Virus record (IMG/VR): IMGVR_UViG_3300021142_000014 | Coordinates: 1-64,000 of that record | Reading direction: 5' to 3' (one strand) | Length of the DNA stretch: 64,000 nucleotides | Source of the DNA: a virus | Shown here: positions 727 to 25,566 of the stretch, in pieces | Numbering within the stretch: the stretch's first letter is position 1 | Layout: the number at the start of each line of letters is the position of its first letter | The notes under the pieces: model-generated | The model's database searches: none | Told to the model about the DNA's origin: nothing | What the model saw: only the letters and a program-made list of their open reading frames with translations | Program-made: the position numbers and the translations under genes

Positions 727-963
727 TTATTCAGTTATAGGCTCAGCAATAGTTGTGCCTTTATCATGAACATTCCAGTGGCACCGGTCAAATCGGCTTG
801 GGGTTCCATAATGGTTGTAATGAGTCCATTGTGGAGGTCTTCCTTTTATTATACCTGCTGGTACTCTTTCGTCAGGCGTTCCCTCATGTATTATACAAAA
901 ACCACAGTTCTTACATTTAGAATGATTATTGCATTCTTTAGCGTATTTGAGATTCCAATTCAT
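727..963 (-). CDS. Small MNWNx(R/K)YA-tagged protein, Cys/His-rich
   Basis: Starts MNWNLKYAK; has CxxH, CxxC and CHW motifs. Confidence 0.8.
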   Translation of the reverse strand: MNWNLKYAKECNNHSKCKNCGFCIIHEGTPDERVPAGIIKGRPPQWTHYNHYGTPSRFDRCHWNVHDKGTTIAEPITE

Positions 964-1003
964 TATTCGTCTTTCAAATCTTTTAATGAGAACGTAATAT
1001 ATG

Positions 1004-1204
1004 TTATTTTAGAGTGAGAGGGTGATCCTTAGCCATGTGTTGGCCTAAGTCAATAGAAGACGTTTGTCCTTGTAGCTTTAGATCTCGATATTGACTATCG
1101 TTTAAGTTGTCAGACTTAAGGCCTTCAAAGGCAGAGCGCATGCTCTCTTGTAACTTATTACAAGTAGCACAACCCTCTATAGCGTATCTAGTGTTCCAGT
1201 TCAT
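1004..1204 (-). CDS. Small MNWNxRYA-tagged protein (start moved to 1204)
   Basis: MNWNTRYAIEGCATC; the ATG is 1 nt after the upstream gene's TAA. Confidence 0.8.
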   Translation of the reverse strand: MNWNTRYAIEGCATCNKLQESMRSAFEGLKSDNLNDSQYRDLKLQGQTSSIDLGQHMAKDHPLTLK

Positions 1205-1205
1205 A

Positions 1206-1349
1206 TTATTCGTCTTTAAGATCTTCTTCATATTGACGCATCTTCTTTGCCATTTCAGCAGTGCTTTCAAAACTTTCATCAGGAGTAAAGTCAGCATCAA
1301 TGCTTAAATTGATATTATCTTCTGAAGCGTATCGTTCATTCCAATTCAT
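1206..1349 (-). CDS. 47-aa acidic MNWNxRYA-tagged protein (start moved to 1349)
   Basis: MNWNERYASEDN...EEDLKDE; start lies just after the upstream stop at 1354. Confidence 0.75.
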   Translation of the reverse strand: MNWNERYASEDNINLSIDADFTPDESFESTAEMAKKMRQYEEDLKDE

Positions 1350-1353
1350 ATTA

Positions 1354-1887
1354 TTAAATGTCTTCCATAGCATCTTTGTATGCTTTGTACTTTTTATACA
1401 GGGTTGCTTCGTCATGGCCACAACGACGATCGTTCTCATCACATAAAGGGTGATGTTGATCATTTGCAACGTCGCAATTACAACCGGCGCAGAAGCATGG
1501 TGATTCTGTACGATCACCATATTTATCACGATATTTAAGTATTTTTGAATAATCCGCTACTCCATTAAAACAATCAGTGTAATAATCTAAATCTATATTG
1601 TTTTTAGCAGCATCTAATGCATTTTTGTGAGAATAGTCGTAAAAATGCCGATTAATAATATAATTTTGAAGACGTACACCATTAGATTTAACTTCATGTG
1701 CTTGACCCTTAGTAACCAATGGAAGGTGGTCGCTGTAACGATTCATTAATGAATACTCATTCGTGTAATCATAAGGTTCGTTTTCTTCCAAACGTTTCTT
1801 CTTAAAACTATCTTGCACGTAATTAATAAAATCATTGTCATTTGATGATTTTTTTGCATCTAATGCATATCTAAGATTCCAATTCAT
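1354..1887 (-). CDS. MNWNxRYA-tagged protein with C-terminal Cys/His cluster
   Basis: MNWNLRYAL...CFCAGCNC...DQHHPLCDENDRRCGH. Confidence 0.85.
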   Translation of the reverse strand: MNWNLRYALDAKKSSNDNDFINYVQDSFKKKRLEENEPYDYTNEYSLMNRYSDHLPLVTKGQAHEVKSNGVRLQNYIINRHFYDYSHKNALDAAKNNIDLDYYTDCFNGVADYSKILKYRDKYGDRTESPCFCAGCNCDVANDQHHPLCDENDRRCGHDEATLYKKYKAYKDAMEDI

Positions 1888-1888
1888 A

Positions 1889-2269
1889 CTATTCCTCGTC
1901 GATCATACCACTTATAGAATAAGCGTGTTGTGTTAAATTATTTGCATGCTTTATTAAACTGTCTTTCATAGCATCGTTGTATTCTTTGTACTTTTCATTA
2001 GGAGTCTCTATGTGGTTCCATACATGGTTCCAGGCTTCTGCTGCTAAAGCATGAGCATTTGCGGCAAGCTTGTGGATTGTATGATCCGTATCACCCTCAT
2101 AATGTTGGTCAGCAGATTCAGTATGGTAAGCAGTCATACCATTATGGTAATTTTCATACTCTTCAGCTTTTTCTTTATTATACTTATCAGCATCGCTATT
2201 GAACTTTTCATCAAAGTTAGAAAAGTCATATAATGAATTATCATTAGCGTAACGTTGGTTCCAGTTCAT
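1889..2269 (-). CDS. MNWNxRYA-tagged His/Ala-rich helical protein
   Basis: MNWNQRYAN...HKLAANAHALAAEAW; tightly packed with neighbours. Confidence 0.85.
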   Translation of the reverse strand: MNWNQRYANDNSLYDFSNFDEKFNSDADKYNKEKAEEYENYHNGMTAYHTESADQHYEGDTDHTIHKLAANAHALAAEAWNHVWNHIETPNEKYKEYNDAMKDSLIKHANNLTQHAYSISGMIDEE

Positions 2270-2270
2270 A

Positions 2271-2552
2271 CTACTGGTTCCTTTGCTTATGTATTTGACC
2301 TGTCATTGCGCCATACCAGATGGGTTGACTACCGAAAGGTATTGCTTGAGGGGTTGCTGTCTCTACAGGGGCTTGTGGGGCCTCTACAATGGCTTCTACG
2401 GCTACAGGCTCTTCTACCAAAGCTTCTTCGACAGCTTCCGCAATAACTACTTCTTCTACTTTGTCTTCTTCTTGTAGAACATCACTGAGGCCTTGTAGAG
2501 CTTCCTCTATAGGTGTTTCTATCTTTGTTGTTTTAGGTTTTGCTGTAGTCAT
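2271..2552 (-). CDS. Acidic low-complexity hypothetical protein
   Basis: E/V/A-rich ORF abutting the downstream gene. Confidence 0.7.
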   Translation of the reverse strand: MTTAKPKTTKIETPIEEALQGLSDVLQEEDKVEEVVIAEAVEEALVEEPVAVEAIVEAPQAPVETATPQAIPFGSQPIWYGAMTGQIHKQRNQ

Positions 2553-2595
2553 TATTCAGGAATTTTCTTAATTATTCATTACATTGCAATAATGA

Positions 2596-3375
2596 TTATC
2601 CATTAATGATCTTGTCTTGGCATTCTCTGCTACAAACATTTGCTTCAGGGTGACCAGTGTCTTTACCACAATTAAGGCAAGCACCAGCGTTGGTTCTCAT
2701 AGAAGTACCTTCACCTCGAAGAGTTTTGCATTCTGTGCAAGATGAATGGTGTTTGATCATATGCCTGTTGGTTGCTTTGATAACTTGCATAACATTGTCA
2801 TGATCGGCATTATCGGCAAAGAGTTGTTCATTCAAAGCCATTCTGGAATTAATGATGCCACGAGCAACACGGCATATAGAGTCTTCAGCAGAAGCTGTCT
2901 TAGAAAGACTTGCTACTCTTTCGCTCAATATATGTTTTTCAGCACAAGGCCGACATGCTACAGGAACATCGAGAGGAAGTTTATCAACACCAGCGTTTTC
3001 AATTCGAGTCCACCTGCCAGTATCAGGGTGTTTTACAAAACCAGAACTCATTAGATTAGTTTTTAATTTACCAAATTCATCATATTGTTTTCCCATTTCT
3101 TGATGATGTTGTACAGCTCGAGCGGTGCCTACGCTAGTCCCACAAGTATCACATTTACCTGTCCTTTTAAGTCGATCAGGTATTGCAGCAGAACCTGGAG
3201 TAGTTTTATTTTGAAAAACAAGTTCTCCATTTTCATTTTCATTTACTGAGGTTCTGGTTATGTCTGGGGATGCTGGTTGACCTGGTATTCTATCAAGAGG
3301 CGCAGCAATCTTTTGACCTAACGAGTTTGCATATTTAACATCCCATGGGGATAGTGGGTCGGGAATAAATGGCAT
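2596..3375 (-). CDS. Hypothetical protein with several CxxC motifs, WDVKYA and KTAS
   Basis: 259-aa ORF with GAAAGGA SD upstream. Confidence 0.8.
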   Translation of the reverse strand: MPFIPDPLSPWDVKYANSLGQKIAAPLDRIPGQPASPDITRTSVNENENGELVFQNKTTPGSAAIPDRLKRTGKCDTCGTSVGTARAVQHHQEMGKQYDEFGKLKTNLMSSGFVKHPDTGRWTRIENAGVDKLPLDVPVACRPCAEKHILSERVASLSKTASAEDSICRVARGIINSRMALNEQLFADNADHDNVMQVIKATNRHMIKHHSSCTECKTLRGEGTSMRTNAGACLNCGKDTGHPEANVCSRECQDKIING

Positions 3376-3674
3376 GACGAATCCTTTCGTATCTATATCC
3401 TATAGTAATTAGCACCCTATTTTACAGTATCTCTGAAAATGCCCCAAGGGGTCCCCGCCATTTTTTTTAAGTGACCTCTTTTCCTATAATAGGGGTCCCA
3501 TTTTCTATAAGTACCCCCCCTATGAAAACCCTTTGTTTCTGGAAAAGGCAAAAACTTGTCATCCTATTTTACGCCTTACATTGAGAGATGAAGTACAAAG
3601 GCAAAAAGGTTATGAACTTCTTTGGACATCATCATTCGGTAATCCTAAGTAAGAAATGAAAGGAGGTGAGTAAC

Positions 3675-3809
3675 ATGCGTATTCCAAAGTTTAACTCTGG
3701 AAGCAAGCCAACGTATCGTGGTCAGTTTAGTACACCTGCATGGCCTGCAGCTAGTGGCAGAACAACGTCATCAGGTAGACGTAATTCACCACGACGTAGA
3801 ACTAAGTAA
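3675..3809 (+). CDS. 44-aa basic Arg/Ser-rich peptide
   Basis: Strong SD (AAAGGAGGTGA); MRIPKFNSG...RRNSPRRRTK; below the ORF-track cutoff. Confidence 0.6.
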   Translation: MRIPKFNSGSKPTYRGQFSTPAWPAASGRTTSSGRRNSPRRRTK

Positions 3810-3862
3810 ACCTCAATGCAGGAGGTCCCATATCAACTCAGAAATGGTTTGGTGTGGTGCCT

Positions 3863-3877
3863 CATGTCGTGAGACAT
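3863..3877 (+). repeat. Repeated GNRA hairpin CATGTCGTGAGACAT (identical at 4289-4303 and 5611-5625; variants at 14318-14331 and 15186-15200)
   Basis: Exact 15-mer three times, always just upstream of an A-rich leader and SD. Confidence 0.85.
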
Positions 3878-3909
3878 CAATTAAACAAGTAAGAAAGTAA
3901 GTGATAAAT

Positions 3910-4071
3910 ATGAGTGTTAACTCGTACACAAGTAATGACTGGAGTAAGTTCATAGATGAGTTTGAATCTGGTGAGCTTGCCCCTCCAATGGTTGAAGTAA
4001 TTGAACCTGAGGAACCACGTCGCACACACTGTTGTTCTGACTGCGGTTGTGAGTGTGGTGGTTGTAACTAA
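3910..4071 (+). CDS. 53-aa peptide with acidic N-terminus and Cys-rich tail (CCSDCGCECGGCN)
   Basis: Manual translation; preceded by the GTAAGAAAG leader typical of this region. Confidence 0.65.
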   Translation: MSVNSYTSNDWSKFIDEFESGELAPPMVEVIEPEEPRRTHCCSDCGCECGGCN

Positions 4072-4089
4072 GTAAGAAAGGAGGTAATC

Positions 4090-4251
4090 ATGGCATCAAG
4101 CAAAAGCTTGATCCAATGTGACACATGCGGACGATGGGACGAAGTTTACGACCAAGACTTAATGTCAATCTTTAAGACGCTTGGCGGTTGTAAATTCGTC
4201 TGTCACCTTTGTGCAATTGAAGCAATGCAACAAAAAGAAGTAAGCCTCTAG
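4090..4251 (+). CDS. 53-aa zinc-ribbon protein
   Basis: SD AGAAAGGAGG; CDTC...CHLC. Confidence 0.75.
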   Translation: MASSKSLIQCDTCGRWDEVYDQDLMSIFKTLGGCKFVCHLCAIEAMQQKEVSL

Positions 4252-4335
4252 ACAGGCTGGCATCACCGGGGTAACTCGGTGGTGGCTACATGTCGTGAGA
4301 CATCTGCAGTAAATAACAAGTAAGAAAGGAAATAT

Positions 4336-4617
4336 ATGTCAGAGACAGTTCTAGCCTGGTCAACAATGATCTGGTCAGATACACCTGAGCCTCAACCCAG
4401 AGAGTTGTATGGAGGTTCACTTCTGTTGGCTGTACAAAACAGATGGAATCGCTCAAGCGACGATCCAGATAGGAAGTTTATACCTGGTCTGCTCGGGGCA
4501 TCACCTACTGTCACTGTTATCAGTGGCACAGGTAATATCGAGGTCGTTATAGCCAACGATCTTAACGAAGTCAGGGTAGAGAATATCAAGCCTAACTTAT
4601 TAGTCATTACAGACTAA
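4336..4617 (+). CDS. Hypothetical protein
   Basis: SD AAGAAAGGA; 93 aa. Confidence 0.7.
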   Translation: MSETVLAWSTMIWSDTPEPQPRELYGGSLLLAVQNRWNRSSDDPDRKFIPGLLGASPTVTVISGTGNIEVVIANDLNEVRVENIKPNLLVITD

Positions 4618-4624
4618 TGGGTTA

Positions 4625-4687
4625 CCCCACCTGGCTATCCACCAGGCTCCTGTTCAATGGAGAGTCAGAGTCAAATCTGACTTGGGG
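4625..4687 (+). ncRNA. tRNA-like cloverleaf (non-canonical)
   Basis: CCCCA/TGGGG closing stem encloses CCTGG/CCAGG, CTCC/GGAG and AGTCAG/CTGACT hairpins; the last has a T-loop-like GTCAAAT; no CCA. Confidence 0.45.
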
Positions 4688-4778
4688 ACGTTACCACTGC
4701 AGGGATGCAGGAGTAACAGCAGTAACCGGTAACTCAGCGGATCTGAGGAAATAAATAAATAAGAGAAGGAAGACTATT

Positions 4779-5510: not shown

Positions 5511-5521
5511 TACCCGCAGTA

Positions 5522-5551
5522 AGACCTGAGGTATGTCTATAAACTGCCTCA
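5522..5551 (+). ncRNA. H-type pseudoknot motif (repeated family)
   Basis: AGAC/GTCT stem; loop TGAGGTA pairs with TGCCTCA after an ATAAAC linker. Confidence 0.65.
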
Positions 5552-5608
5552 CCACCCCCCCTGGGGGATACCTTATAGGTGTATTAGGTTCGATTCCTAA
5601 TGGGGTGG
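5552..5608 (+). ncRNA. tRNA-like element (acceptor stem + T-arm)
   Basis: CCACCCC/GGGGTGG stem stacked on ATTAGG-TTCGATT-CCTAAT. Confidence 0.65.
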
Positions 5609-5656
5609 GCCATGTCGTGAGACATTGAATAAATAAACAAGAAAGGAAGTATAGGT

Positions 5657-5971: not shown

Positions 5972-6042
5972 TATAGATCGTTCTGCGTGGGACATACGAA
6001 ATATTATACGGGTGATTTAGGTCTCCGCATTTGTACTTCATA

Positions 6043-6058
6043 TGTTCCACGTGGAACA
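6043..6058. promoter_or_regulatory. parS-type palindrome TGTTCCACGTGGAACA
   Basis: Perfect 16-bp palindrome fitting the bacterial parS consensus TGTTYCACGTGRAACA, in a long non-coding spacer. Confidence 0.6.
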
Positions 6059-6952: not shown

Positions 6953-7005
6953 TTATTGCACAGGTCTCCTCCCGATAAGGGGAGGGGGCCGATGGGATGA
7001 TTAAT
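6949..7005 (+). repeat. Conserved stem / internal loop / hairpin element, copy 1
   Basis: ATTATTGCACAG-[GC hairpin]-CGATGGGRTGATTAAT, as at 7226-7284 but with a different inner hairpin. Confidence 0.75.
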
Positions 7006-7037
7006 CCCAATATAAACAAGAAAGAGAGTAAGCAATT

Positions 7038-7229
7038 ATGTCTAATCTAGTGTTAGGTTGCAATTGTGGAGATGATGAATGTGGAAACACAAAACTAAAG
7101 ATTGTGGGGATGGGCGGTAATGAAGCCGGTATCCTCCTTTCTGATAGAGGTGTTGAAAATGCATTCTTTGTTGGTGGCGAAGCGTTACAACACGTCATTG
7201 ACAGTTTAACTAGTATCTCTAATAGTTAA
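7038..7229 (+). CDS. Small hypothetical protein (CxCxxxxC)
   Basis: A-rich leader; flanked by the two conserved stem elements. Confidence 0.7.
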   Translation: MSNLVLGCNCGDDECGNTKLKIVGMGGNEAGILLSDRGVENAFFVGGEALQHVIDSLTSISNS

Positions 7230-7284
7230 TTATTGCACAGCTCATCCAGGGTTAACCCCCTGGGTGGGCGATGGGGTGATTAAT
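7226..7284 (+). repeat. Conserved stem / internal loop / hairpin element, copy 2
   Basis: Same flanks as 6949-7005. Confidence 0.75.
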
Positions 7285-7330
7285 AAAGAAGTTAGTAAGA
7301 ATCACTCCAAATAAGAAAGGAGCAAGGTAC

Positions 7331-7858
7331 ATGGAAACACTGCGTAAGCTGTGTCTTTGTACTTCATTGCTACTGATGGGGAATATGGGAATTTCGGGGC
7401 TAGTTTCGGCTGCCCACGCGCCCGACCTCCCACATCAGGTTCAGACAGTAACTAAGGCTAATCTGCACTGGTATGAGAAAATCATGCCAAGTGTGGTTAA
7501 GCACGAAGTTCCTGCTCTGATGCGATGGAATACAATGGCTACAGATGTAACAGCCGCATGGCCTTCTGCAACTGATCCAACTAGACAATTGCCTATTCAC
7601 ATACAAGCACAGTTTGCCTGTATTCGATACCAAGAGTCTAGAAACCACCTAACTAGTGTAAACATTCACTCTGGTGCTGGTGGTTGGTATCAGTTTACTC
7701 CATATATATGGGGTTTTGCTAGAGGGTACATACATGGATTACCTGCTACACCACAGATGGCAACTGGTGAACAACAATCACTTGTGGCTGTCTGGTATTA
7801 CCAACGTAACCACAGTTTGGTTCCCGAATGGGGTCCAGATCTGAGGATATGTAAGTAA
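7331..7858 (+). CDS. Secreted lysozyme-fold lytic transglycosylase (Rpf/SLT-like)
   Basis: Signal-peptide-like N-terminus; CIRYQES (catalytic Glu), GAGGWYQF, EQQ..VA motifs. Confidence 0.8.
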   Translation: METLRKLCLCTSLLLMGNMGISGLVSAAHAPDLPHQVQTVTKANLHWYEKIMPSVVKHEVPALMRWNTMATDVTAAWPSATDPTRQLPIHIQAQFACIRYQESRNHLTSVNIHSGAGGWYQFTPYIWGFARGYIHGLPATPQMATGEQQSLVAVWYYQRNHSLVPEWGPDLRICK

Positions 7859-7865
7859 TACGGTA

Positions 7866-7906
7866 TCCCCGATGGTCGTAATTCAGGTTCGACTCCTGAT
7901 TGGGGA
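7866..7906 (+). ncRNA. tRNA-like minihelix
   Basis: TCCCCGA/TTGGGGA (7 bp), connector TGGTCGTAAT, TCAGG-TTCGACT-CCTGA T-arm. Confidence 0.75.
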
Positions 7907-7980
7907 GCCGGAGCACAAAAGTGCTGCCCTGGTAGAGCAATCTACTAAAAATAAATAAACAAGAAGAAAGTAAGAAAAAC

Positions 7981-8742
7981 ATGAGTGAAGCAACCTATGA
8001 AGGTATTCCAGTTCCACAGTGCTACAAGGACTTGGAGGATGTGCTCAATGCCGGTGTAGACCGTGTCATTTTGTACGGCCCTCCAGGTACTGGTAAGACT
8101 TACTCTGGCCTCAACTTTGGTATTAACCAAGCTGGTGCCGAGCGTCTTATCTGTTCTGAGGATATGACGAATGCCGATGTCTCAGGTTCTGTCATGCCTA
8201 ATGAGCATGGTGGGTTCACATTCGTTCCAGGTGCTGCATTACGTTCCTGGATCGGTGACGGTACTATCGGTGCTCGTCTCGTTGTTGACGAGATTGACAA
8301 AGCCGGTGGTGACGTACAATCCACTTTGTTGGCATTCCTTGACAGTGTTGAGTCTTCATCGTTCAAGCACCCTTACACTGGAGAGACTTATACTCCAAAT
8401 CCAGGGTTCTCAGCGATCATGACTACTAACCTAGAAGACATGGATGAGTTGCCAGTCGCACTCAAGGACCGTTTTCCGATTGCAATCAAGATTGATGCTG
8501 CACATCCTGCTGCATTGATTGCTGCATTGCCACCGGAACTACGTCAACTTGCAGCTACAATCGTAGCTGGTAAGCCAGGTCAACGTGCTTCTCTACGCGC
8601 ATTCAAAGCGTTTGAGCAGCTTCGTAGTACTCCTGACTTCGGTGTAGAACGTGCAGCTCGCATGGTATTCGGTCGTATGGCTGATCCTATCATTGATGCT
8701 CTCAAGATTGGCACTCTAACTCCTGAGTATTCTCTATCATGA
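7981..8742 (+). CDS. MoxR/CbbQ-type AAA+ ATPase
   Basis: Walker A GPPGTGKT, Walker B VVDEIDK, TTN sensor, ALKDRF arginine finger. Confidence 0.9.
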   Translation: MSEATYEGIPVPQCYKDLEDVLNAGVDRVILYGPPGTGKTYSGLNFGINQAGAERLICSEDMTNADVSGSVMPNEHGGFTFVPGAALRSWIGDGTIGARLVVDEIDKAGGDVQSTLLAFLDSVESSSFKHPYTGETYTPNPGFSAIMTTNLEDMDELPVALKDRFPIAIKIDAAHPAALIAALPPELRQLAATIVAGKPGQRASLRAFKAFEQLRSTPDFGVERAARMVFGRMADPIIDALKIGTLTPEYSLS

Positions 8743-10220
8743 GTTATGACGATGACATTCTCAAGGATGAGGTAATGCCCCTACCAGGGGTTATTACCTC
8801 ATTCCGAGAGGATATTCAACAGCCAATCCAATGGGATGTTGTTCCAACTTCTGGTGAGCTAGGCGTAGGCGTAGACTTTAGTGCTGGTGTAATATCTGTT
8901 CCTCTTTCAGGTGACAGTTATTCTCAGCGTTTACAACTACAACAGCTTATCAAAACTCGTGTTTCTCCAGTTGATGACAAAGTATTATCTGAGTTAGCTA
9001 GGCAATACAAGACTAGTGGTGTTACGCTAGATGTTCTTCGTGTTTCCGAGCAAGCTCGCATCAACAAAATAACAGCTCAGTTTGCTGCTGCTAAGGGGAT
9101 AGTCACGGAGCCTGATGGTCACGAAAAGATATTGGGTAAGAGGTTGGCAACAGCCGGTGATATGCGTTCATGGGATAAAGCAGTGGAGTTCACTGCTCAG
9201 AATGCAGGTACGAAAGCTTTCGATTCATTCGCAAGTGGTATTCGTTCTGTTAATCCTGAGTGGAGTAAAGATCTGCGTAATCTCAATAAACGACTGGGTA
9301 AAACCTTCAACGAATCTGTTCAAGAACTCGGCGATACAAGACCACTTAACTTTGGTAATGATATCGTAGGTCCTAGAGGTTTACGTCACACTCTTTATGC
9401 AGCTAATGAAGTTGCTGAGTTTATGTCTGCAGGCTATAGAGCTCCTCAGAGCATTAAAGCCCTCAGAAGAGACTCAGAGGACAAACGAGCTCGTGAGTGG
9501 GGTGATACCAATGAAGATGGTAAGGTTGACTCTAATCAAACTACACTGGATACATCGGATGTACCAGATGACTTCGAATTTGCCTATGATGATGGTGAGT
9601 TTGGTAAGTTAGTCTGGGCTGAAGATCTGCCGTTGACCGTTGAGGTTAAAGGTTATATGCGCCGTAAAAAGCGTGGTATGCAGTCTGGTCGTAGAGTATC
9701 TTATCCTTCACGTCTACTTACTGACCCAGAGCGCAGAATATTTAGCCAGAAGGTTAAAGTCAAAGGTGGTATCGTTGTCGTTGACATATCAGGTTCTATG
9801 AGCTTGAGTCAAGCAGACATTGAATCCATCGTTGAAGCAGCTCCAGCTGCAGTCATTATGGCATATAGTGATTGTGGTGAGAACAGTCCCAATGCTTGGC
9901 TCCTTGCTAACCGTGGTTGGCGAGTAAGTCACGTTGACAACATTGGTGGTATGAACAATGGTGTTGACGGTACAGCATTGACATGGGCAATTCGACACAA
10001 GAAGTATGGTGAAGATATTGTCTGGGTCAGTGACGGTCAGATTACCTCAATGAATGGTGGACAACGAGATGAGTTGGCAATTCAATGTGCTAAGTTAGTC
10101 AAGAAGCACAGGATCATTATGATTCCTAGTGTTCAAGAAGCAGTCGCAATGTTTAAGAAAGGTAAGCTTATCAACAAGCCTGCCGGTCCTATTCGCGATG
10201 CTTTGCTTGGTAAACTTTAA
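8739..10220 (+). CDS. von Willebrand A (MIDAS) domain protein, partner of the AAA+ ATPase
   Basis: VVDISGSMS MIDAS and WVSDG; ATGA overlap with the AAA gene. Confidence 0.85.
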   Translation: MSYDDDILKDEVMPLPGVITSFREDIQQPIQWDVVPTSGELGVGVDFSAGVISVPLSGDSYSQRLQLQQLIKTRVSPVDDKVLSELARQYKTSGVTLDVLRVSEQARINKITAQFAAAKGIVTEPDGHEKILGKRLATAGDMRSWDKAVEFTAQNAGTKAFDSFASGIRSVNPEWSKDLRNLNKRLGKTFNESVQELGDTRPLNFGNDIVGPRGLRHTLYAANEVAEFMSAGYRAPQSIKALRRDSEDKRAREWGDTNEDGKVDSNQTTLDTSDVPDDFEFAYDDGEFGKLVWAEDLPLTVEVKGYMRRKKRGMQSGRRVSYPSRLLTDPERRIFSQKVKVKGGIVVVDISGSMSLSQADIESIVEAAPAAVIMAYSDCGENSPNAWLLANRGWRVSHVDNIGGMNNGVDGTALTWAIRHKKYGEDIVWVSDGQITSMNGGQRDELAIQCAKLVKKHRIIMIPSVQEAVAMFKKGKLINKPAGPIRDALLGKL

Positions 10221-18880: not shown

Positions 18881-20881
18881 TTATATCTTCTTTTGACTTC
18901 TAGACATACCACCGTAGTCTCTTGCAGAACGCGCAGCACCAAACTTTTGTAGTTTCTGTCTAGCACTTATAGGCCCATTGTCTGCACCATTGCGGGTGTG
19001 GTATCCACCCTTAGCACCTGGATAAAGATCTGTATTACTTAACCTATCACGCATCTCTAGCTTAACAAAGTTATCTTCAAGCAATGCATCAACAATTACC
19101 ATGATACAGTCAGAAAGATCTTCTGTGCGTATAGGTCCAAAGTCTTGCTTACGCACTCGACCATTCACTTCTTGCAAGAACTTAAGTTCCTGTTCTAATA
19201 GACTAGTTCCATCAGGACCGTAGTTATCACGATATGAATGGATCCAATTCATACCAATAGCAGACTTAAAACGCTCTGCTCTACGCATATTGCTTTGCCC
19301 AGTAAACTTTTCCTCACGAATGATTACCTTGTGTGGAGGATTTACTTGCTTAAGACGTTTTTTTAGCCTAGGCAGCGTAACAAATGCTCCGTACTGGTCA
19401 AACGAAAAGACCTTGGTTGTTCTAAAATCACACAGCGTTCTTACGAGCTCTTCTTCGATCTCTTCATAGTCTATTTGATTATCTTCGTAATCTTCTGGAT
19501 TCCATACTTTAATCCAGTCTATGATAACGTGATACCATTCTTCACCATCTTCTTGGTCCGGTATCTTTTCAACGTGTCCAATCATCGCTGCTGTGTTAGC
19601 ACCACTCTTTGAAGGGTCGCAGTGTCCTTGATAGATTATGCTAAATTTACCTTCATATTGTGGCTCTAAAATGATGAGATCACCGTCTGCATTAACATAT
19701 GGTTCAAACATACGCTCTACCATCTTAGGGTTGAGGTAAGCATTAGTAACTTCAGCCCATTGAGAAAGACGCTCTACCTTGAATGCATCAGGTTCACGCT
19801 TCTCTAAACGCTTCATAGATTCATCGTATGCCTGTGGAGCACCACGGAAATTAAACCCACCAGTTGCTCTTGGGTCATCCCAGTCTTCGTAAGGTCCCCA
19901 CGATGGCAACTGCACCATCATCATATCTGGATAGGATGGAGTATTTGTTTCATTATCTCGTTCTATAGCAGACTCATATAGGCTATATGCTTTACCAACT
20001 TTGGTGAATGGAGATGTTGGAATATAAATAAACCCATCTTTACCAAATTGGTCCAATGCAGGAGTAATAGCATTATATACTTCTTCACTCGTACGTGAAC
20101 CACCCGTACCAACTAACATGTGTGCAAACTCATCGAACATAACGCCAAAAGCCGCAGCACCACGACTAGCTTTAGAGTTACTTGTAACAGCCATGTTTCT
20201 GATTGATGCAATCAAACGACTAGGGCGAATGCCTCTAGCTTCGAACGCTGCAATTCTACGAAGGTCAGCAGGTGTACGCAATGCAAGAAAGTGCTCCTTA
20301 GCATCAGCGATATATGGCTGAAAGCATGGAGCATCAATGATAGTGTTAGCAAGGTCAGCAAACTGGAATTGTTTGGCCTGTTGAATGTTGGTAGCCACAC
20401 AGAACATATACATGTCCTTAGACTTGTCGATACCGTAATGGTACTGAGGATCATCTAGCATAAGCAGGCCCCAGTTGATATAAGCACCTATGATACCACC
20501 GATGTGGCCTTTACCACCACGACGGCCTGTGATGTTTACCACTTCACGGAAATGCTTATAGCCATTATCTTTAAGATAAGCTACACGTTCAAGAACATCA
20601 GGAGACACACCAATACTTGTGCCATTGCGATCGAATCCCTTTGTCCATCCATCAATGACTTCATAATCATAATCTGTCATATGCTCTGTCTCTAAGCATA
20701 TGAGACGAAGTAGAGTCTTTTGGCGTGGATATAGCCTACGTCCCAAGAACTCTGGATGCTCAGCAAACGTGACAATATCAGGGAGATCTGGTGTCTCGAT
20801 TAAGCTTTTTTTAGCTATCTCGAAGAAGTCATGCTGACCCTTGAGGATATTAGCATTACTATTTTTGGTTACTTTTGCCAT
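18881..20881 (-). CDS. terL: Terminase large subunit
   Basis: LYPRQ, Walker A-like GRRGGK, Walker B FDEFAH, nuclease HCDPS...DLSD. Confidence 0.9.
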   Translation of the reverse strand: MAKVTKNSNANILKGQHDFFEIAKKSLIETPDLPDIVTFAEHPEFLGRRLYPRQKTLLRLICLETEHMTDYDYEVIDGWTKGFDRNGTSIGVSPDVLERVAYLKDNGYKHFREVVNITGRRGGKGHIGGIIGAYINWGLLMLDDPQYHYGIDKSKDMYMFCVATNIQQAKQFQFADLANTIIDAPCFQPYIADAKEHFLALRTPADLRRIAAFEARGIRPSRLIASIRNMAVTSNSKASRGAAAFGVMFDEFAHMLVGTGGSRTSEEVYNAITPALDQFGKDGFIYIPTSPFTKVGKAYSLYESAIERDNETNTPSYPDMMMVQLPSWGPYEDWDDPRATGGFNFRGAPQAYDESMKRLEKREPDAFKVERLSQWAEVTNAYLNPKMVERMFEPYVNADGDLIILEPQYEGKFSIIYQGHCDPSKSGANTAAMIGHVEKIPDQEDGEEWYHVIIDWIKVWNPEDYEDNQIDYEEIEEELVRTLCDFRTTKVFSFDQYGAFVTLPRLKKRLKQVNPPHKVIIREEKFTGQSNMRRAERFKSAIGMNWIHSYRDNYGPDGTSLLEQELKFLQEVNGRVRKQDFGPIRTEDLSDCIMVIVDALLEDNFVKLEMRDRLSNTDLYPGAKGGYHTRNGADNGPISARQKLQKFGAARSARDYGGMSRSQKKI

Positions 20882-21396
20882 TAATTACTTAGTATACCAT
20901 TACTGTGCTGAAATGCATCGTTAGCAACTGCCTTATAATGATCTTCATCATCACCAGTCTCCGTATTAACACTATGTTTACCCATAATACCATTGATTAA
21001 AAAACGGCAATGTTCATGTTTGCCAATTCCTTCACGCATAATATCTTTTTTATCTGGGTCATATGTATTCATAAGTCGACGGTTTAATTGCCTTATAGCC
21101 TCGTGATGACGACCATACATATCAGCATAGTGATCCATGAATGCACGACTCATTGAACCAAACTGGTCTCCCATAGCTTGGTTAAATTCCTGCTCATTAG
21201 CAATAGCATAGCGTTCTGACCACTTCATTGCTGCCTTCTTTTCTTTTTTGCTTTCACGTTCTTGACTCTTGTGAATGGCGTATAATTGTATCTCAGCGTC
21301 TCTACGAGTTTTGTGAGTTCCAAGAGTTCTACTACCGTCTTCCGTTTTGACATAGTATTTACCGTTCTCATGTACGATAATGGCAATCTTTAACAT
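20881..21396 (-). CDS. Putative virion/head protein with internal MKWSERYA
   Basis: N-terminal ENGKYYV...LGTH.T...A..QL module; coupled to terL. Confidence 0.75.
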   Translation of the reverse strand: MLKIAIIVHENGKYYVKTEDGSRTLGTHKTRRDAEIQLYAIHKSQERESKKEKKAAMKWSERYAIANEQEFNQAMGDQFGSMSRAFMDHYADMYGRHHEAIRQLNRRLMNTYDPDKKDIMREGIGKHEHCRFLINGIMGKHSVNTETGDDEDHYKAVANDAFQHSNGILSN

Positions 21397-21397
21397 A

Positions 21398-22468
21398 TTA
21401 CCAATCAGAATTTACATTAGAGTGTTCGCCGCGGAAATCTTTTGCTGGTTTAAACTCTTTACAATTTGTGTTGAAATCACCCGTTTGGGTCCATGATCCA
21501 CATTCTCTGCAACCTAGATCTTCCATTTGTGACTCTGCTTCTGGGTTCATCTTAGTATCCCACATGTGTGCATTCTGATCGTGACCACACTTGCATTTAG
21601 TAGCAGTTTTTTCACTAGCGTAGCGTTCATCAAAATCTTCTGGTTCTTTTTGCTCTTCTGGTTCTTCTTGTTTACGTTTTTTATCATTACGTTTATTAAT
21701 TTTATCCATAATAAAGGGTTGAGCAACAATTGCAGCTGGTGTCAAAAGATTAAGAATTTCAGAAACAGATGCTTCTTTTTTCTTACCATCATGGCTTTTA
21801 GCGATACCAGCAGCCCATGGCTTATCGCTAGCAGTCTTAGAAGCAATTGTATCTTCTGGTTTCCAAACATGTTCTGGGTGATCTAGACTAGGACCAGGAC
21901 CGCCTTTGCGAGGACCAAATTCCGGCATGTGTTCTGCACAGGCATAATTGTGGCTCCAATTTTGGTGACCATGCTGATCCCACGTACCCTCGCCTCTCTT
22001 ACGAGACATGCAGTATCGTTCAGCACAGGTTACATCACCCTTTACTTCATGGTTGCCAATGTCGCATGTGTGTGTAGGAAGGACAATATCAACGTGACCA
22101 CCACGATCAGTGCCTTCACTGGCATCAAAACCACGAGTGGTAATATCATTTGGTGTTTTTACAGATGCTCTGCGGGAGTAGTTCCATTCTGCATTAGCAG
22201 TTGAAGCACCATCTTCAGCGTCTCGTTGAATTTCTGCTAATTTTTCTTGGCACTCAGTGCTACAAGATCTTCCAGCTTCTTCATTAGCTCCACCATTTCC
22301 CATAATGTCATCAAAGTCTGTACCTGGAGGGAACTTTTTACCACAAGCATCACAATTAAAACCATTTTTCATAACATCAGCATGATTTTTGTCTACCCAA
22401 TCACGATCAGATGCTGTACGAAAGTTTAATATAGTGTGTTGTTCTTGAGCTTTTGAGATTTTACGCAT
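21398..22468 (-). CDS. Modular Cys/His-rich protein segmented by K/R-x-A-S/T motifs
   Basis: RTAS, RRAS, KTAS, KEAS, ERYAS and KTAT separate Zn-ribbon-like modules. Confidence 0.8.
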   Translation of the reverse strand: MRKISKAQEQHTILNFRTASDRDWVDKNHADVMKNGFNCDACGKKFPPGTDFDDIMGNGGANEEAGRSCSTECQEKLAEIQRDAEDGASTANAEWNYSRRASVKTPNDITTRGFDASEGTDRGGHVDIVLPTHTCDIGNHEVKGDVTCAERYCMSRKRGEGTWDQHGHQNWSHNYACAEHMPEFGPRKGGPGPSLDHPEHVWKPEDTIASKTASDKPWAAGIAKSHDGKKKEASVSEILNLLTPAAIVAQPFIMDKINKRNDKKRKQEEPEEQKEPEDFDERYASEKTATKCKCGHDQNAHMWDTKMNPEAESQMEDLGCRECGSWTQTGDFNTNCKEFKPAKDFRGEHSNVNSDW

Positions 22469-22704
22469 TATTTTGTTCCTTTTCCTAAACTCTGGTGTAA
22501 TTCACGTACCTTTTTAATGATATCGACGTGCTTTTTGGACTGTGAGTCCATCTTTTTGCCATCACTAGTGGGTTTTTTAGCTTCCTGGACTTCGTCCAGA
22601 TGTTGACAGAATCCACAATCTGAACCAGTACAGTGACCGGCTCTTCCAAAATCAATACCACTCTCGGCCATAGTGCCGCTAGCATAGCGTAGGTTCCAAT
22701 CCAT
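22468..22704 (-). CDS. MDWNLRYA-tagged small protein
   Basis: MDWNLRYAS; CxxC motif. Confidence 0.75.
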   Translation of the reverse strand: MDWNLRYASGTMAESGIDFGRAGHCTGSDCGFCQHLDEVQEAKKPTSDGKKMDSQSKKHVDIIKKVRELHQSLGKGTK

Positions 22705-23426
22705 TAACGTTTCCTATCCATTCTGACTTGTTGTGCTTGGTTTCTTAATACTTCTACAGAGGCACGAGCATCATCCAAAGCTTTGTGTCCACCAGGATCT
22801 ACGCCATACTTATCGCATAATTTTTCTAGCTTAACAAAACCTTCTCTTCCTGTTACAGCCTGTTCATGACGAATAACATCAATCATCCTTGTGCTATCTG
22901 GATCAAACCCAGATGTTTTGAGTGGAGCACCATTGTTATACTTAGAGTAAGTATTCTTAAGCACGTTCATGTCATAGCCTCTGTGGTTGGCACCGACAAT
23001 GACTGCACCTTGCTTGGCATAGTGTGCTAGCACTTGCGCCATTCTATTGACACCAATCTTTGGGTGTAATGCTGGTGCCATTCCTTTAATGAATTCACCA
23101 CCGTAGCTTCTGTTTAATTCATCTTCAGACCATCCATGCACTGCTTCTGCCATGGGGTTGCTTGTTTTTGTTGGTCTAACAAGAAAATGGTGTTGTTCAT
23201 GTGGTTGAATGATACCATTGCGGTACACTACAAGACCATAAGACACTGGTTCATCAAGGTCTTGCCTTGTAATAATCCTATCAGTGCCTTTTTCTTTCTT
23301 ACCAACTTCTTTATTAAGACCAGTGGTTTCAGTATCGAACCCCACCACTAATGGTGGTAGGTTATCGTGCTTCTGAAGATCTTCGTTAAAGTTAAATGTA
23401 CTAGTATTAAAAGAAGGAGTAGTCAT
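22704..23426 (-). CDS. DEDDh 3'-5' exonuclease (DnaQ-like)
   Basis: FDTETTG, VHG, YD, HKALDDA. Confidence 0.9.
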   Translation of the reverse strand: MTTPSFNTSTFNFNEDLQKHDNLPPLVVGFDTETTGLNKEVGKKEKGTDRIITRQDLDEPVSYGLVVYRNGIIQPHEQHHFLVRPTKTSNPMAEAVHGWSEDELNRSYGGEFIKGMAPALHPKIGVNRMAQVLAHYAKQGAVIVGANHRGYDMNVLKNTYSKYNNGAPLKTSGFDPDSTRMIDVIRHEQAVTGREGFVKLEKLCDKYGVDPGGHKALDDARASVEVLRNQAQQVRMDRKR

Positions 23427-24124
23427 TACGCTTCCTCATACTTGTCTTGTCTATAATCTACTGGCATGTAGTGGCCGCTGCCCAAATTTGTCAGAGCATT
23501 GATTATCCTATTATGAATAACATGATCTTTAACAGTGTTAGCAAACATTGAGCTGTAACGATGATGGCTTATCAAACGATTGATTCTTTCGTTATAATCA
23601 TCAACAGGCAATATGCCACGTTCATCGTAAGCACTACTACCTATATGCTTTGTTAAGCTAGGATCTATCTTTGAGCATTCACTCATCATCCATTCATTTG
23701 CTCTGCGGCGGAATGGAGCATCTGGATAAACACCATCATATTGTGGTCTATTTTTTAAAGCTAAGTGATGACCAAAGATGTCTTGGACTGCATTGGATAC
23801 ATGAGGTTTATTACCTTCAACAATGCCTCTAATTTCTTCAAATTGTGAAGGGTTAGCAATTACAGTCTTATCATTATCAAGCATTGTCTTCTTATAATGA
23901 TCTTGATAACCTAGTGCTTCATCGACAGATGCATGATGACTGCCAGGATTATTTATCCTAGCAGTTTCATAGTCTTCGATTGGAATACCTTGAGATGATG
24001 CATCTTTTACTTCATCGTGAGTTGCACCCATGGAACGCACACGCTTATACGTAGCTTTATCAAAGGTATCTGGATCTATGTCCAGTCCTTTGATCTCTGC
24101 GTATTCTTCAGCCGTGGGTTCCAT
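23426..24124 (-). CDS. Hypothetical protein with short helical repeats
   Basis: 232 aa; ATHDEVKDA...GI...Y..AR unit. Confidence 0.75.
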   Translation of the reverse strand: MEPTAEEYAEIKGLDIDPDTFDKATYKRVRSMGATHDEVKDASSQGIPIEDYETARINNPGSHHASVDEALGYQDHYKKTMLDNDKTVIANPSQFEEIRGIVEGNKPHVSNAVQDIFGHHLALKNRPQYDGVYPDAPFRRRANEWMMSECSKIDPSLTKHIGSSAYDERGILPVDDYNERINRLISHHRYSSMFANTVKDHVIHNRIINALTNLGSGHYMPVDYRQDKYEEA

Positions 24125-24130
24125 GATAGT

Positions 24131-24613
24131 TTACATACCAGGAAGGATTAGCTTGTTGCTCATACCTAATGACTTACGCTTCTGTTCGTAGTAAAGGTCA
24201 GCAACACCAGCACCAGTTTCGTAACGGTTCTGTTCTGGGTTGAACTCTGAGCCATCAACACGACCTACAATAGTAATAGTAGGTGGAGTAGGCTCTTGCA
24301 TGATACCAGGCATAACCCAGTCAACGACTACCTGAAAGCCCAGAGCGTGGAACTTTTCATCTGCTTCGTTACGTAGTGAAGTTAGGTTAGCAAAGCTACC
24401 CTTACGATTACCATACTTGTATTGAAGCTCTTGAAGCAGTCTCCATACTCCCATAAGCTCAGATTCCATTAGCTCGATTGGTTCTTCCTTACCGAGTGCC
24501 TCTTCTTCAGCCTTCTGGCTAGCAAGATAGGCGTTGACCTGTGCAATTTGTTCTGGTGTCTGCTTAACATCTTCTGGACGAATTCCACCGATGTCGTTAA
24601 TATTAGTAGTCAT
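24131..24613 (-). CDS. Hypothetical protein
   Basis: SD AAAAGGA; 160 aa. Confidence 0.8.
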   Translation of the reverse strand: MTTNINDIGGIRPEDVKQTPEQIAQVNAYLASQKAEEEALGKEEPIELMESELMGVWRLLQELQYKYGNRKGSFANLTSLRNEADEKFHALGFQVVVDWVMPGIMQEPTPPTITIVGRVDGSEFNPEQNRYETGAGVADLYYEQKRKSLGMSNKLILPGM

Positions 24614-24633
24614 TATTTCCTTTTTGTAATAGA

Positions 24634-25566
24634 TTACTTATCTTCAAGGATACCAGAGTCTTGGATACTATTCCAGGATTTGTTGGTAGCCTTTTGATCT
24701 CTACGTTGTTCTAGCTTATTTTTGAGAGCATCAATAGCAGCAGGAGCCTTCTTTTTGATTGCCATCCCACCAGCTGCGTTAGCTGCAAGATCAAGCATAG
24801 ACTTAAGCTCTGTGCCAGCAGGTGCGTCTGTACCATGTGGTCCAGGGTGTCCTGCTACGTTAGCAATATCTTGTCCCAAGCCTTTTACATAATTAAAAGC
24901 AGTTTCGGCCACAGCCCTAGCGCCGTGACCCAAAGCATCAATCATCGGTAGATGCTCTACGATTCCTGCTTCTTTTTCAATAGCATAACGTTCATCAAAA
25001 GATCCTATGCGTTCTGGTAGGGGTGGTGTTCCATAGTTAATCTTAGAAGAATTAGCATTAACTGTAGCAGCGTTTGCAGAACTACTCTTAGAAACAGCAT
25101 CATTGTGATTACTAATAAGTTGCGTAGCAAATTCTGCACCTCTTGCAGAAGTGCTTGAACCAGTATCAGAAGGACCATGGCCGGGGGCATTGTTCTTAAT
25201 CATATTACTAGTGAGGGAGTGTGCATTAGCAGCATCAAGGTGAAGATTGGCAGCACTAGTATGAGCTGCAGATACTATTGGGTCAATATTTTTTAATGCA
25301 TTAGCAATATTATTGTGTTGTTGATAAGAACGTTGGTGAGCTTGACTTGCCATTAATGAAGCTGGTCCCATTTGACCTTGTCCAGCAACAGCATTTCTAA
25401 CATCAGAATGTCGAACTGCAGCATTATTAAGTCCCATCCCCAGAGTGTTTTGCTTAACTACATCATGATTAAGGGTTCCTAAGTAGTGCTCAGCAACAGG
25501 AGAGACTTGTTGACTTTGAGCACCTGCTTCTTTTTTAGAGGCATATTTTTCATTCCAATTTTTCAT
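24634..25566 (-). CDS. MKNWNEKYA-tagged Ala/His/Asn-rich protein (start moved to 25566)
   Basis: MKNWNEKYASKKEAG and internal FDERYAIEKEAG; AAAGGA upstream. Confidence 0.8.
   Translation of the reverse strand: MKNWNEKYASKKEAGAQSQQVSPVAEHYLGTLNHDVVKQNTLGMGLNNAAVRHSDVRNAVAGQGQMGPASLMASQAHQRSYQQHNNIANALKNIDPIVSAAHTSAANLHLDAANAHSLTSNMIKNNAPGHGPSDTGSSTSARGAEFATQLISNHNDAVSKSSSANAATVNANSSKINYGTPPLPERIGSFDERYAIEKEAGIVEHLPMIDALGHGARAVAETAFNYVKGLGQDIANVAGHPGPHGTDAPAGTELKSMLDLAANAAGGMAIKKKAPAAIDALKNKLEQRRDQKATNKSWNSIQDSGILEDK

What the first reader, a model, noticed from the sequence alone, without database searches (positions are those of the whole stretch)
727..25566. MNWNx(R/K)YA: a portable N-terminal tag on unrelated proteins, a candidate capsid-targeting/protease signal
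Seen: five tandem genes begin MNWNLKYAK, MNWNTRYAI, MNWNERYAS, MNWNLRYAL and MNWNQRYAN (two true starts were hidden in longer ORF calls). The motif recurs near the terminase as MDWNLRYAS (22704) and MKNWNEKYAS (25566), internally as MKWSERYAI, FDERYAS and FDERYAI, and as WDVKYAN in 2596-3375. Sequences after the tag are mostly unrelated. Known: T4 internal proteins share a 10-aa N-terminal capsid-targeting sequence removed by the prohead protease. Inference: this 8-aa tag is an analogous signal that loads diverse cargo, perhaps anti-defence effectors, into the head and is cut after R/K-Y-A.
Basis: partly seen in the sequence, partly recalled or inferred. Interest (0 to 1): 0.85.

Follow-up and report, generated by a model that had tools for sequence, protein, structure and literature searches.

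The report
Shared address tag on actinophage proteins
A group of uncultured lake phages of Actinobacteria puts the same eight-residue peptide (M-N-W-N-x-R-Y-A) at the front of dozens of otherwise unrelated small proteins; it looks like an undescribed docking or address tag, most plausibly for loading proteins into the phage head, but no partner has been identified.

Summary
The window has 11 in-frame copies of [WF][NDS]x[RK]YA, all on one strand (0.2 expected by chance). Synonymous codons vary, so selection acts on the protein. The tag recurs in dozens of related IMG/VR and metagenome contigs on about 50 sequence-unrelated cargo families: zinc ribbons, a DnaQ-type exonuclease, a cupin, ParB-like, DUF2188 and His-rich helical modules.

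It is absent from cellular genomes, cultured relatives (Finch, Cali) and a complete sister phage. Distant homologs of the commonest cargo domain lack it, so it is a clade-specific add-on. It sits at module boundaries, where genes fuse and split. AlphaFold leaves it unstructured and off the cargo. Its conservation pattern fits a capped amphipathic helix.

Capsid targeting is the best reading (about 0.4), on circumstantial evidence only. The commonest cargo domain is fused to prohead proteases and portals in other phages. Tagged proteins of about 740 aa lie three genes upstream of the portal in relatives. Cleavage after R-Y-A has no support.

Rivals are docking to a clade-specific HslV-like peptidase or MoxR ATPase, or to a host hub. 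This scan has noted comparable shared tags in other phages.

The parts
727..963 (-). Tagged gene A, 78 aa, MNWNLKYA, followed by a Cys/His-rich body
1004..1204 (-). Tagged gene B, 66 aa, MNWNTRYA. The true start is inside a longer ORF call.
   Evidence: 82% homolog with the same start in L024
1206..1349 (-). Tagged gene C, 47 aa, MNWNERYA. The true start is inside a longer ORF call.
1354..1887 (-). Tagged gene D, 177 aa, MNWNLRYA
   Evidence: no PHROG or Pfam hit
1889..2269 (-). Tagged gene E, 126 aa, MNWNQRYA, with a His-rich helical body
2596..3375 (-). Gene F, 259 aa, with the tag variant WDVKYA at residues 10-15. Its body carries FCS/TRASH-like zinc fingers. It is the first gene after the divergent intergenic region.
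20881..21396 (-). Gene G, 171 aa, immediately upstream of TerL. It has a small N-terminal domain matching phrog_3684 (DUF2188-like by eye), then an internal tag MKWSERYA (M at 21228) and a His-rich module. In relative L143 the tagged module is a separate gene.
21398..22468 (-). Gene H, 356 aa. It has an N-terminal MRKISKA...NFRTA motif and a Cys-rich region. After a charged linker comes an internal tag FDERYA (F codon starts at 21634) heading a zinc-ribbon module.
22468..22704 (-). Tagged gene I, 78 aa, MDWNLRYA. The family is conserved and always tagged.
22704..23426 (-). DnaQ-type exonuclease. Here its N-terminus is degenerate (MTTPSFNTSTFNFNED), but orthologs start with MFNAKYA, MYNSRYA or MFNSKYA.
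24634..25566 (-). Gene J, 310 aa, low-complexity Ala/Asn/His-rich. It has two tags: MKNWNEKYA at the N-terminus and FDERYA at about residue 190 (F codon starts at 24999). It is absent from the syntenic site in L021.
18881..20881 (-). Large terminase. In relatives it is flanked on both sides by tagged genes.
50108..50680 (-). HslV/proteasome-beta-like peptidase. It is a candidate partner: found in the tag-bearing genomes that cover this region and absent from tag-free relatives.
7981..10220 (+). MoxR-type AAA_5 ATPase plus a 493-aa partner. It is a candidate partner: present in tag-bearing G001, G002 and G005, not found in tag-bearing but truncated G020, and absent from tag-free relatives.

Best explanation
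The tag is a short linear docking motif. It consists of an N-cap residue (N, S, T or D) followed by a roughly 10-residue amphipathic helix, [WF]-N-x-R-Y-A-x-[ED]-K. The helix forms only on binding and is read by one common, probably multimeric, receptor.

The most likely receptor is part of the assembling head (scaffold or core, inner capsid surface, or portal). Tagged accessory modules would then be loaded into the procapsid and delivered with the DNA, as the T4 capsid-targeting sequence does for internal proteins and as cargo-loading peptides do in encapsulins.

Shown:
- The motif exists and is under protein-level selection.
- It is portable, clade-specific, located at module boundaries, and structurally independent of the cargo.

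Inferred:
- The helical conformation.
- The existence of a single receptor.
- The head as destination.

Removal by a protease is not required by any observation.
For: - Motif statistics and synonymous variation.
- Consensus from 63 unique tagged ORFs. Conserved positions are 0, 1, 3, 4, 5, 7 and 8; variable positions are 2, 6 and 9, which gives helical periodicity. Position -1 is N at N-termini and mostly S or T (once D) at internal copies, all helix N-cap residues.
- About 50 unrelated cargo families.
- Clade-specific add-on. In the family of alignment A3, 68 of 82 close homologs carry the tag 10-14 residues before the core domain. None of 38 distant homologs does; they start directly with the core.
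- Genes fuse and split exactly at the tag: and gene G against L143.
- AlphaFold2 on a 79-sequence alignment gives core pLDDT 80-92, while tag residues 1-13 are below 50 and unpacked.
- Head link 1: the A3 core domain matches (Foldseek probability 1.0, TM 0.7-0.8) a domain fused in other phages to proteins named prohead protease, XkdF, portal (Mu gp29, COG4695, HRTV-4), Dps and ParB.
- Head link 2: fast-evolving tagged proteins of about 740 aa lie three genes upstream of the portal in G001, G005 and G020.
- Head link 3: a tagged minigene directly follows a conserved virion gene (the homolog of E3 gp107 'structural protein') in L013 and L007.
- Tagged genes cluster in variable islands, as the T-even internal-protein loci do (PMC3012670).
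- Two tags on one protein (J; L005; L011) fit a multimeric receptor.
Against: - There is no virion proteome, and no cleavage or binding data.
- A DnaQ-type exonuclease and other DNA-metabolism modules carry the tag, and most tagged genes here lie beside replication genes and TerL. That fits a replisome or packaging hub equally well.
- Portal, head protease, scaffold-like protein and capsid protein are also present in the tag-free sister phage G017. Loss of the tags there is explained more simply by an accessory receptor that G017 lacks.
- The head link for the A3 domain rests on automatic UniProt names. My own profile comparison with this clade's head protease gave nothing.
- Comparable capsid readings of other shared tags in this scan were later priced at only about 10-13%.
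Confidence: 0.4

Rival explanations
1. The tag docks clients onto a clade-specific phage protein-handling machine. This would be the HslV/proteasome-like peptidase (50108-50680), the MoxR-type AAA+ ATPase with its partner (7981-10220), or both. The tag would then act as a degron for timed removal, or as a chaperone or metal-insertion client tag.
For: - HslV-like: present in tag-bearing G001, G002 and G020. G005's contig ends beside its conserved neighbour. Absent from tag-free G017, G016, Finch and Cali.
- AAA_5: present in G001, G002 and G005. Not found in tag-bearing but truncated G020. Absent from G017, G016, Finch and Cali.
- The HslV-like protein keeps T2, D19, K35 and a GSG motif invariant. 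These positions correspond to Thr1, Asp17 and Lys33 of proteasome-family peptidases (my own knowledge).
- In IMG/VR it was found almost only in this clade.
- Cargo is enriched in His (5.1% against 1.8%) and Cys (2.4% against 1.0%) and includes metalloprotein folds. MoxR/VWA systems often mature metalloproteins (my own knowledge).
- Loss of tags together with loss of an accessory receptor is parsimonious.
Against: - The co-occurrence amounts to a single phylogenetic event. Many other genes show the same pattern (RusA, a 52-aa zinc ribbon, a DUF2786 protein, glycosyltransferases).
- Proteasome-type peptidases need an unfoldase, and none of the HslU type was seen.
- The two candidates are unlinked to each other and to the tagged genes.
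- Tagging about 10% of one's own genes for destruction is hard to rationalise.
Confidence: 0.2
2. The tag is a hub-binding motif, analogous to clamp-binding or PIP-box peptides. It would recruit diverse accessory proteins to one host or phage DNA-metabolism or packaging hub, such as the replisome, the terminase-portal motor or RNA polymerase.
For: - The tag sits on a DnaQ-type exonuclease in many relatives.
- Nearly every gene between the exonuclease and TerL is tagged.
- It works at N-terminal or internal positions, in one or two copies, as clamp-binding motifs do.
- Cargo includes ParB-like and zinc-ribbon nucleic-acid-type modules.
Against: - The sequence does not resemble the bacterial clamp-binding consensus QL[SD]LF (my own knowledge).
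- No host-like protein starts with the tag. The 88 hits in 185,579 species genomes are scattered singletons at about the chance level.
- No clamp gene was identified in the phage.
- The sister phage G017 shares the replication and packaging core (DnaE, DnaB, primase, RecA, SSB and TerL; it lacks RusA) but has no tags.
Confidence: 0.15
3. The tag is mainly a protease recognition site. It would mark where polyproteins are cut into modules, and N-terminal copies would be by-products of gene fission.
For: - Tags sit at module boundaries, preceded by charged or Ser-rich linkers.
- Fused and split versions of the same modules interconvert.
- E or D stands two residues after the Ala in 39 of 63 tags.
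- Relatives encode a head maturation protease.
Against: - About 85% of copies are at the extreme N-terminus, where a cleavage site alone has no use yet is kept invariant.
- The tag-free phage G017 has the same head protease (60% identical).
- No matching site was seen in the capsid, scaffold-like or portal proteins.
Confidence: 0.08
4. The tag is a recognition or modification site for a tailoring enzyme, in the manner of a RiPP leader. An example candidate is the 2OG-Fe(II) oxygenase encoded just downstream of the five tandem genes.
For: - A 2OG-Fe(II) oxygenase (3-602; Pfam PF13640) ends the tandem operon.
- Related oxygenases lie within a few kb of tags in several loci.
- An earlier scan note found another shared phage tag linked to a radical-SAM enzyme.
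Against: - None of the three G000 oxygenases has a homolog in tag-bearing G001, G002, G005 or G020 (tblastn, E up to 0.01).
- The nearby oxygenases are in syntenic relatives, so they are not independent evidence.
Confidence: 0.04

Closest known systems
Capsid-targeting sequence (CTS) of phage T4 internal proteins IPI-III and Alt
   Same: - A roughly 10-residue N-terminal peptide is the only thing shared by a diverse, fast-changing set of small proteins encoded in variable loci (PMC3012670).
- An acidic residue is frequent at about position 10.
   Different: - There is no sequence similarity.
- Functional-looking internal and doubled copies exist.
- No T4-type (S77) protease was found.
- No evidence of cleavage or of virion residence.
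- The host is actinobacterial, and the phage is related to cluster C mycobacteriophages.
Encapsulin cargo-loading peptides
   Same: - A short terminal peptide on unrelated, often metal-binding, cargo.
- The proposed receptor would be an HK97-type shell. The capsid protein of relatives matches phrog_2522 'major head protein'.
   Different: - The known consensus (GSLxIGSLKG-like; my own knowledge) is unrelated and usually C-terminal.
- Binding to the shell is untested here.
N-terminal packaging signal of phage P1 DarB and the Dar antirestriction proteins
   Same: Large and small accessory proteins are addressed to the head by N-terminal information. A P1 virion paper that mentions capsid targeting was listed but not read; what is said about DarB is from my own knowledge.
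   Different: The P1 signal is not a short motif shared by many proteins.
Clamp-binding and PIP-box-type hub motifs
   Same: A short linear motif at N-terminal, internal or repeated positions on many unrelated clients, including an exonuclease.
   Different: The sequence is different, and no clamp or other hub was identified.
Other shared phage tags noted by this scan (e.g. M-N-W-Y-K-x-A-Q in a phage G-like fragment)
   Same: The same phenomenon, and even the same M-N-W start (AI notes, unchecked by me).
   Different: The motif, phage lineage and host are different. Those tags also lack an identified receptor.

Membership tests
T4-type capsid-targeting sequence system | Short N-terminal peptide shared by otherwise unrelated proteins in variable loci | tested here: met
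T4-type capsid-targeting sequence system | Sequence related to MKTYQEFIAE, ending in an (L/I)-x-E cleavage site | tested here: not met
   The consensus is MNWNxRYAx[ED]. There is no L or I at -2 from the acidic residue.
T4-type capsid-targeting sequence system | gp21-type (Peptidase_S77) prohead protease that removes the tag | tested here: inconclusive
   PF03420 gave no match in G000, but the contig is only about 69% complete and lacks the head module. Relatives encode a phrog_18299 head maturation protease. I did not scan the relatives for PF03420, and cleavage cannot be tested.
T4-type capsid-targeting sequence system | Tagged proteins are present inside virions and injected | not testable with these tools
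   Context evidence only.
Encapsulin cargo-loading peptide | Peptide binds the inner face of an HK97-fold shell protein | not testable with these tools
   No complex prediction was available.
Encapsulin cargo-loading peptide | Gly/Ser/Leu-rich consensus, usually C-terminal | tested here: not met
   The tag is aromatic and basic, and N-terminal or internal.
Bacterial sliding-clamp-binding motif | Consensus QL[SD]LF or QxxLxxF | tested here: not met
   The tag has no Q or L at the conserved positions.
RiPP-like leader read by a co-encoded tailoring enzyme | A tailoring enzyme consistently co-occurs with tagged genes | tested here: not met
   The 2OG oxygenases are absent from tag-bearing G001, G002, G005 and G020.

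The most novel reading that the evidence does not exclude
A family of freshwater actinophages uses a sequence-readable, encapsulin-like cargo code. Any module preceded by the capped helix [WF]-N-x-R-Y-A is loaded into the capsid and injected with the DNA. The phage's whole library of delivered effectors (nucleases, zinc-binding proteins, possible ADP-ribosyltransferases) could then be read from the sequence alone, and the tag could be used to package foreign proteins.
Probability: 0.3. Interest if true: 0.8.

Novelty: new variant of a known kind. Interest (0 to 1): 0.6.

Why it matters
- If the tag is an address for the virion, it gives a sequence rule for predicting injected proteins in an abundant group of lake phages. 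These are uncultured phages whose hosts, to judge from their relatives and WhiB genes, are Actinobacteria; which genus was not tested.
- It would extend the T4 capsid-targeting principle to a distant lineage, with many more clients (about 10% of genes).
- It would offer an 8-10-residue handle for packaging foreign cargo.
- If instead the tag docks clients to the phage's own HslV-like peptidase or MoxR ATPase, it would reveal a phage-run protein-turnover or maturation system with its own degron.
- In either case, one conserved peptide ties together about 50 families of proteins of unknown function, so a single pull-down becomes informative for all of them.

Tried and rejected
- DNA-level conservation: rejected, because synonymous codons vary.
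- Chance: rejected.
- Simple paralogy: rejected. BLAST on tag-stripped cargo gives 36 and 57 clusters, and distant homologs of one cargo lack the tag.
- Tag as part of the cargo fold: not supported (AlphaFold2). Only 11 of 63 tags are followed by CxxC within 24 residues.
- Mimicry of a host protein's N-terminus: the scan of 185,579 species genomes gave only scattered singletons, mostly out of frame. A few class I SAM methyltransferases start MNWN[DE]RYA.
- 2OG-oxygenase modification tag: rejected.
- 'Decayed tags' in the sister phage G017: withdrawn. The tag-like FQAKTA and WSLRHA there are conserved family features that are also present in tag-bearing genomes.
- A different N-terminal tag in G017 or G016: none found. 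The apparent hits were a tandem DNA repeat and tail-fibre N-termini.
- Promoter and terminator scans: at chance level, so no timing information.
- Annotation dead ends: PHROG and Pfam gave nothing for most tagged proteins. The ESM Atlas gave nothing. PDB sequence and fold searches gave nothing. hhalign of distant A3-domain fusions against this clade's head protease gave nothing. Annotations of cluster C phages are mostly 'hypothetical'.
- HslV and tag co-occurrence in 13 further contigs: uninformative, because these are 16-54% fragments.

Full report
**What is there.** The window is the first 64 kb of a 99.7-kb viral contig that CheckV rates about 69% complete. A six-frame scan finds eleven in-frame copies of [WF][NDS]x[RK]YA, all on the minus strand and all inside plausible genes.
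- Five tandem genes (727-963, 1004-1204, 1206-1349, 1354-1887, 1889-2269) start M-N-W-N-x-[RK]-Y-A.
- Gene 2596-3375 has W-D-V-K-Y-A at residues 10-15.
- Genes starting at 22704 and 25566 begin MDWNLRYA and MKNWNEKYA.
- Three copies are internal (W or F codon starting at 21222, 21634 and 24999).

Those starts follow the preceding stop by 2-5 nt, whereas the longer calls overlap the upstream gene. Dinucleotide-preserving shuffles give 0.225 copies on average, with a maximum of 2 in 200. Residue shuffles of the called proteins give 0.058 against 9 observed. Codons for R, Y, A and N vary synonymously between copies, so the constraint is on the peptide.

**How widespread.** A back-translated pattern found 30 IMG/VR loci, many with 2-6 tagged ORFs. 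In whole records the pattern occurs only on the coding strand and never in the reversed control.

The same pattern in one genome for each of 185,579 prokaryote species gave 88 scattered single hits. My rough expectation by chance is about 70. Most are short out-of-frame ORFs, and a few are class I SAM methyltransferases that happen to start MNWN[DE]RYA.

The large terminase is 37-44% identical to those of cluster C mycobacteriophages, Rhodococcus phages E3 and Finch, and Gordonia phages, and the phage carries WhiB-like genes. Finch and Cali have no tag.

Among uncultured relatives, G001, G002, G005 and G020 carry tags. G020 mostly uses W-S-[IL]-R-Y-A. The complete 124.7-kb sister genome G017 (TerL 66% identical) and G016 do not carry tags.

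**Anatomy of the tag.** From 63 unique tagged ORFs the consensus is M-N-W-N-x-R-Y-A-[SKN]-[ED]-K.
- Conserved positions are 0, 1, 3, 4, 5, 7 and 8. Variable positions are 2, 6 and 9. This is the periodicity of an amphipathic helix with W, R, Y and E on one face.
- The residue before the aromatic is N at N-termini and mostly S or T (once D) at internal copies. All are helix N-caps.
- About 85% of copies are at the extreme N-terminus. Internal and doubled copies exist (J; L005; two tags 14 residues apart in L011), so a free N-terminus is not needed.

**Cargo.** With the tag removed, tagged proteins fall into 36 BLAST clusters among 63 and 57 among 137 in the larger set.
- They are very hydrophilic, and richer in His (5.1% against 1.8%) and Cys (2.4% against 1.0%) than the proteome.
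- Pfam recognises only a few: an RNase_T/DnaQ exonuclease, ParB_N, Cupin_2, DUF2188, DnaJ-type CxxCxGxG, FCS/TRASH and other zinc ribbons.
- The exonuclease orthologs start with MFNAKYA, MYNSRYA or MFNSKYA in several relatives, but are degenerate in G000 and G001.

**Portability shown by a natural experiment.** The commonest cargo (alignment A3) has 1258 homologs.
- Among the 82 close ones listed, 68 have the tag 10-14 residues before the core domain. The tag is at the N-terminus, or internal when another module is fused in front.
- All 38 distant homologs listed start directly with the core and have no tag.
- In L162 and L143 this protein continues into a second tag plus a DUF2188 module. Elsewhere that module is a separate gene beginning with the same tag.
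- G000's gene G is a fusion whose tagged half is a separate gene in L143.
- The tag therefore marks module boundaries and stays with its module through fusion and fission.

**Structure.** AlphaFold2 on a 79-sequence alignment folds the core (residues 18-116) as a helical domain with pLDDT 80-92. It leaves residues 1-13 below 50, unstructured and unpacked. This is the behaviour of a linear motif that folds on binding.

**Where the tag might lead.**
- Foldseek against predicted viral structures matches the core domain, with probability 1.0 and TM 0.7-0.8, to a domain fused in other phages to proteins named prohead protease, XkdF, portal (Mu gp29, COG4695, HRTV-4), Dps and ParB. The PDB gave nothing.
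- G000's contig lacks the head module. In G001 it reads portal, head maturation protease, 242 aa, a 464-aa acidic scaffold-like protein, 176 aa, major head protein.
- Three genes upstream of the portal sits a fast-evolving tagged protein of about 740 aa, in G001, G005 and G020.
- A tagged minigene directly follows a conserved virion gene (the homolog of E3 gp107 'structural protein') in L013 and L007.
- These points, together with the close formal analogy to the T4 capsid-targeting sequence on hypervariable internal proteins (PMC3012670), make head targeting the best single reading.

**Why confidence is only about 0.4.**
- Nothing shows that tagged proteins are in virions.
- A replication-type exonuclease carries the tag, and in G000 the tagged genes near TerL lie beside replication genes.
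- The head core genes are shared with tag-free G017.
- The genes found in tag-bearing genomes and absent from G017 and G016 include two protein-handling machines. One is an HslV/proteasome-like peptidase with invariant Thr2, Asp19 and Lys35, found in every tag-bearing genome whose contig covers that region. The other is a MoxR-type AAA_5 ATPase with its partner, found in G001, G002 and G005 but not on the truncated G020 contig.
- That co-occurrence is effectively one evolutionary event shared with other genes, so it is a lead and not a result.
- The 2OG oxygenase downstream of the tandem genes is not a consistent companion.
The equivalence of fused and split forms argues for no cut, or for a cut before the tag.

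**Relation to earlier notes.** This scan has recorded comparable shared tags in other phages, one even starting M-N-W. Later checks of those notes kept the observations but priced the capsid reading low. One tag turned out to be linked to a tailoring enzyme, and that note prompted the oxygenase test here.

**Verdict.** This is a real, clade-wide, previously undescribed portable peptide tag. Its mechanism is unresolved between head loading (favoured), a phage protein-handling machine, and a DNA-metabolism hub. I found no description of it in the papers searched.

Noticed in passing
window 50108-50680 (-): A phage-encoded HslV/proteasome-beta-like peptidase (phrog_1040). Thr2, Asp19, Lys35 and a GSG motif are invariant across four orthologs. 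In IMG/VR it was found almost only in this phage clade, and no HslU-like partner was seen.
   Followed up: partly
window 7981-8742 (+) and 8739-10220 (+): A MoxR-type AAA_5 ATPase followed by a 493-aa partner (phrog_33218) in the early block. The pair is present in tag-bearing G001, G002 and G005 and absent from G017, G016, Finch and Cali.
   Followed up: partly
window 21398-22468 (-), N-terminus; many homologs: A second conserved N-terminal motif, MRK[VI]SRAxE.....N[FY]RTA. It heads H-family proteins with varied downstream modules, and its NFRTA end aligns with the NxRYA of the main tag.
   Followed up: partly
L263:1252-1620 and relatives (family A3), just upstream of TerL in relatives; not present in G000: A helical domain of about 100 aa (FKPPxGVQSAA...WGGDAG) with no PDB match. 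In other phages it is fused to proteins named prohead protease, portal, Dps and ParB, so it may itself be a head-associated module.
   Followed up: partly
window 22704-23426 (-): A DnaQ-type exonuclease whose orthologs carry the tag at the N-terminus, while the G000 and G001 copies have lost it.
   Followed up: yes
L016:503-1660 (+): A tagged 385-aa protein with R...STS...E-rich motifs reminiscent of ADP-ribosyltransferases, followed by a second tag-like NWNTRYS and a His-rich module. Pfam gave no hit.
   Followed up: partly
G000 genome 84792-87011 (-), outside the window (L032:2792-5011): A 739-aa, very basic protein built of degenerate repeats (R-F/Y-x-R-x-A-x-A...) in the structural region. 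No family hit.
   Followed up: no
G016 7000-9400 (L179): A long tandem array of a repeat of about 78 bp that reads as MG[SV]T..SS in one frame.
   Followed up: no
G005 81700-82200 (L140): Several copies of a palindromic word that reads MFHVK on both strands, in the early region. It may be an operator or promoter element.
   Followed up: no
G002 34900-48800 (L130-L131): Five tail-fibre paralogs share the N-terminus MPRxxYSxNxY.GGA. This is an ordinary conserved attachment domain and serves as a contrast to the tag.
   Followed up: no
L059, L064, L065, L268, L275 (bacterial and metagenome loci): Class I SAM methyltransferases of unrelated bacteria start MNWN[DE]RYA, the same letters as the tag. 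This is probably convergence.
   Followed up: no
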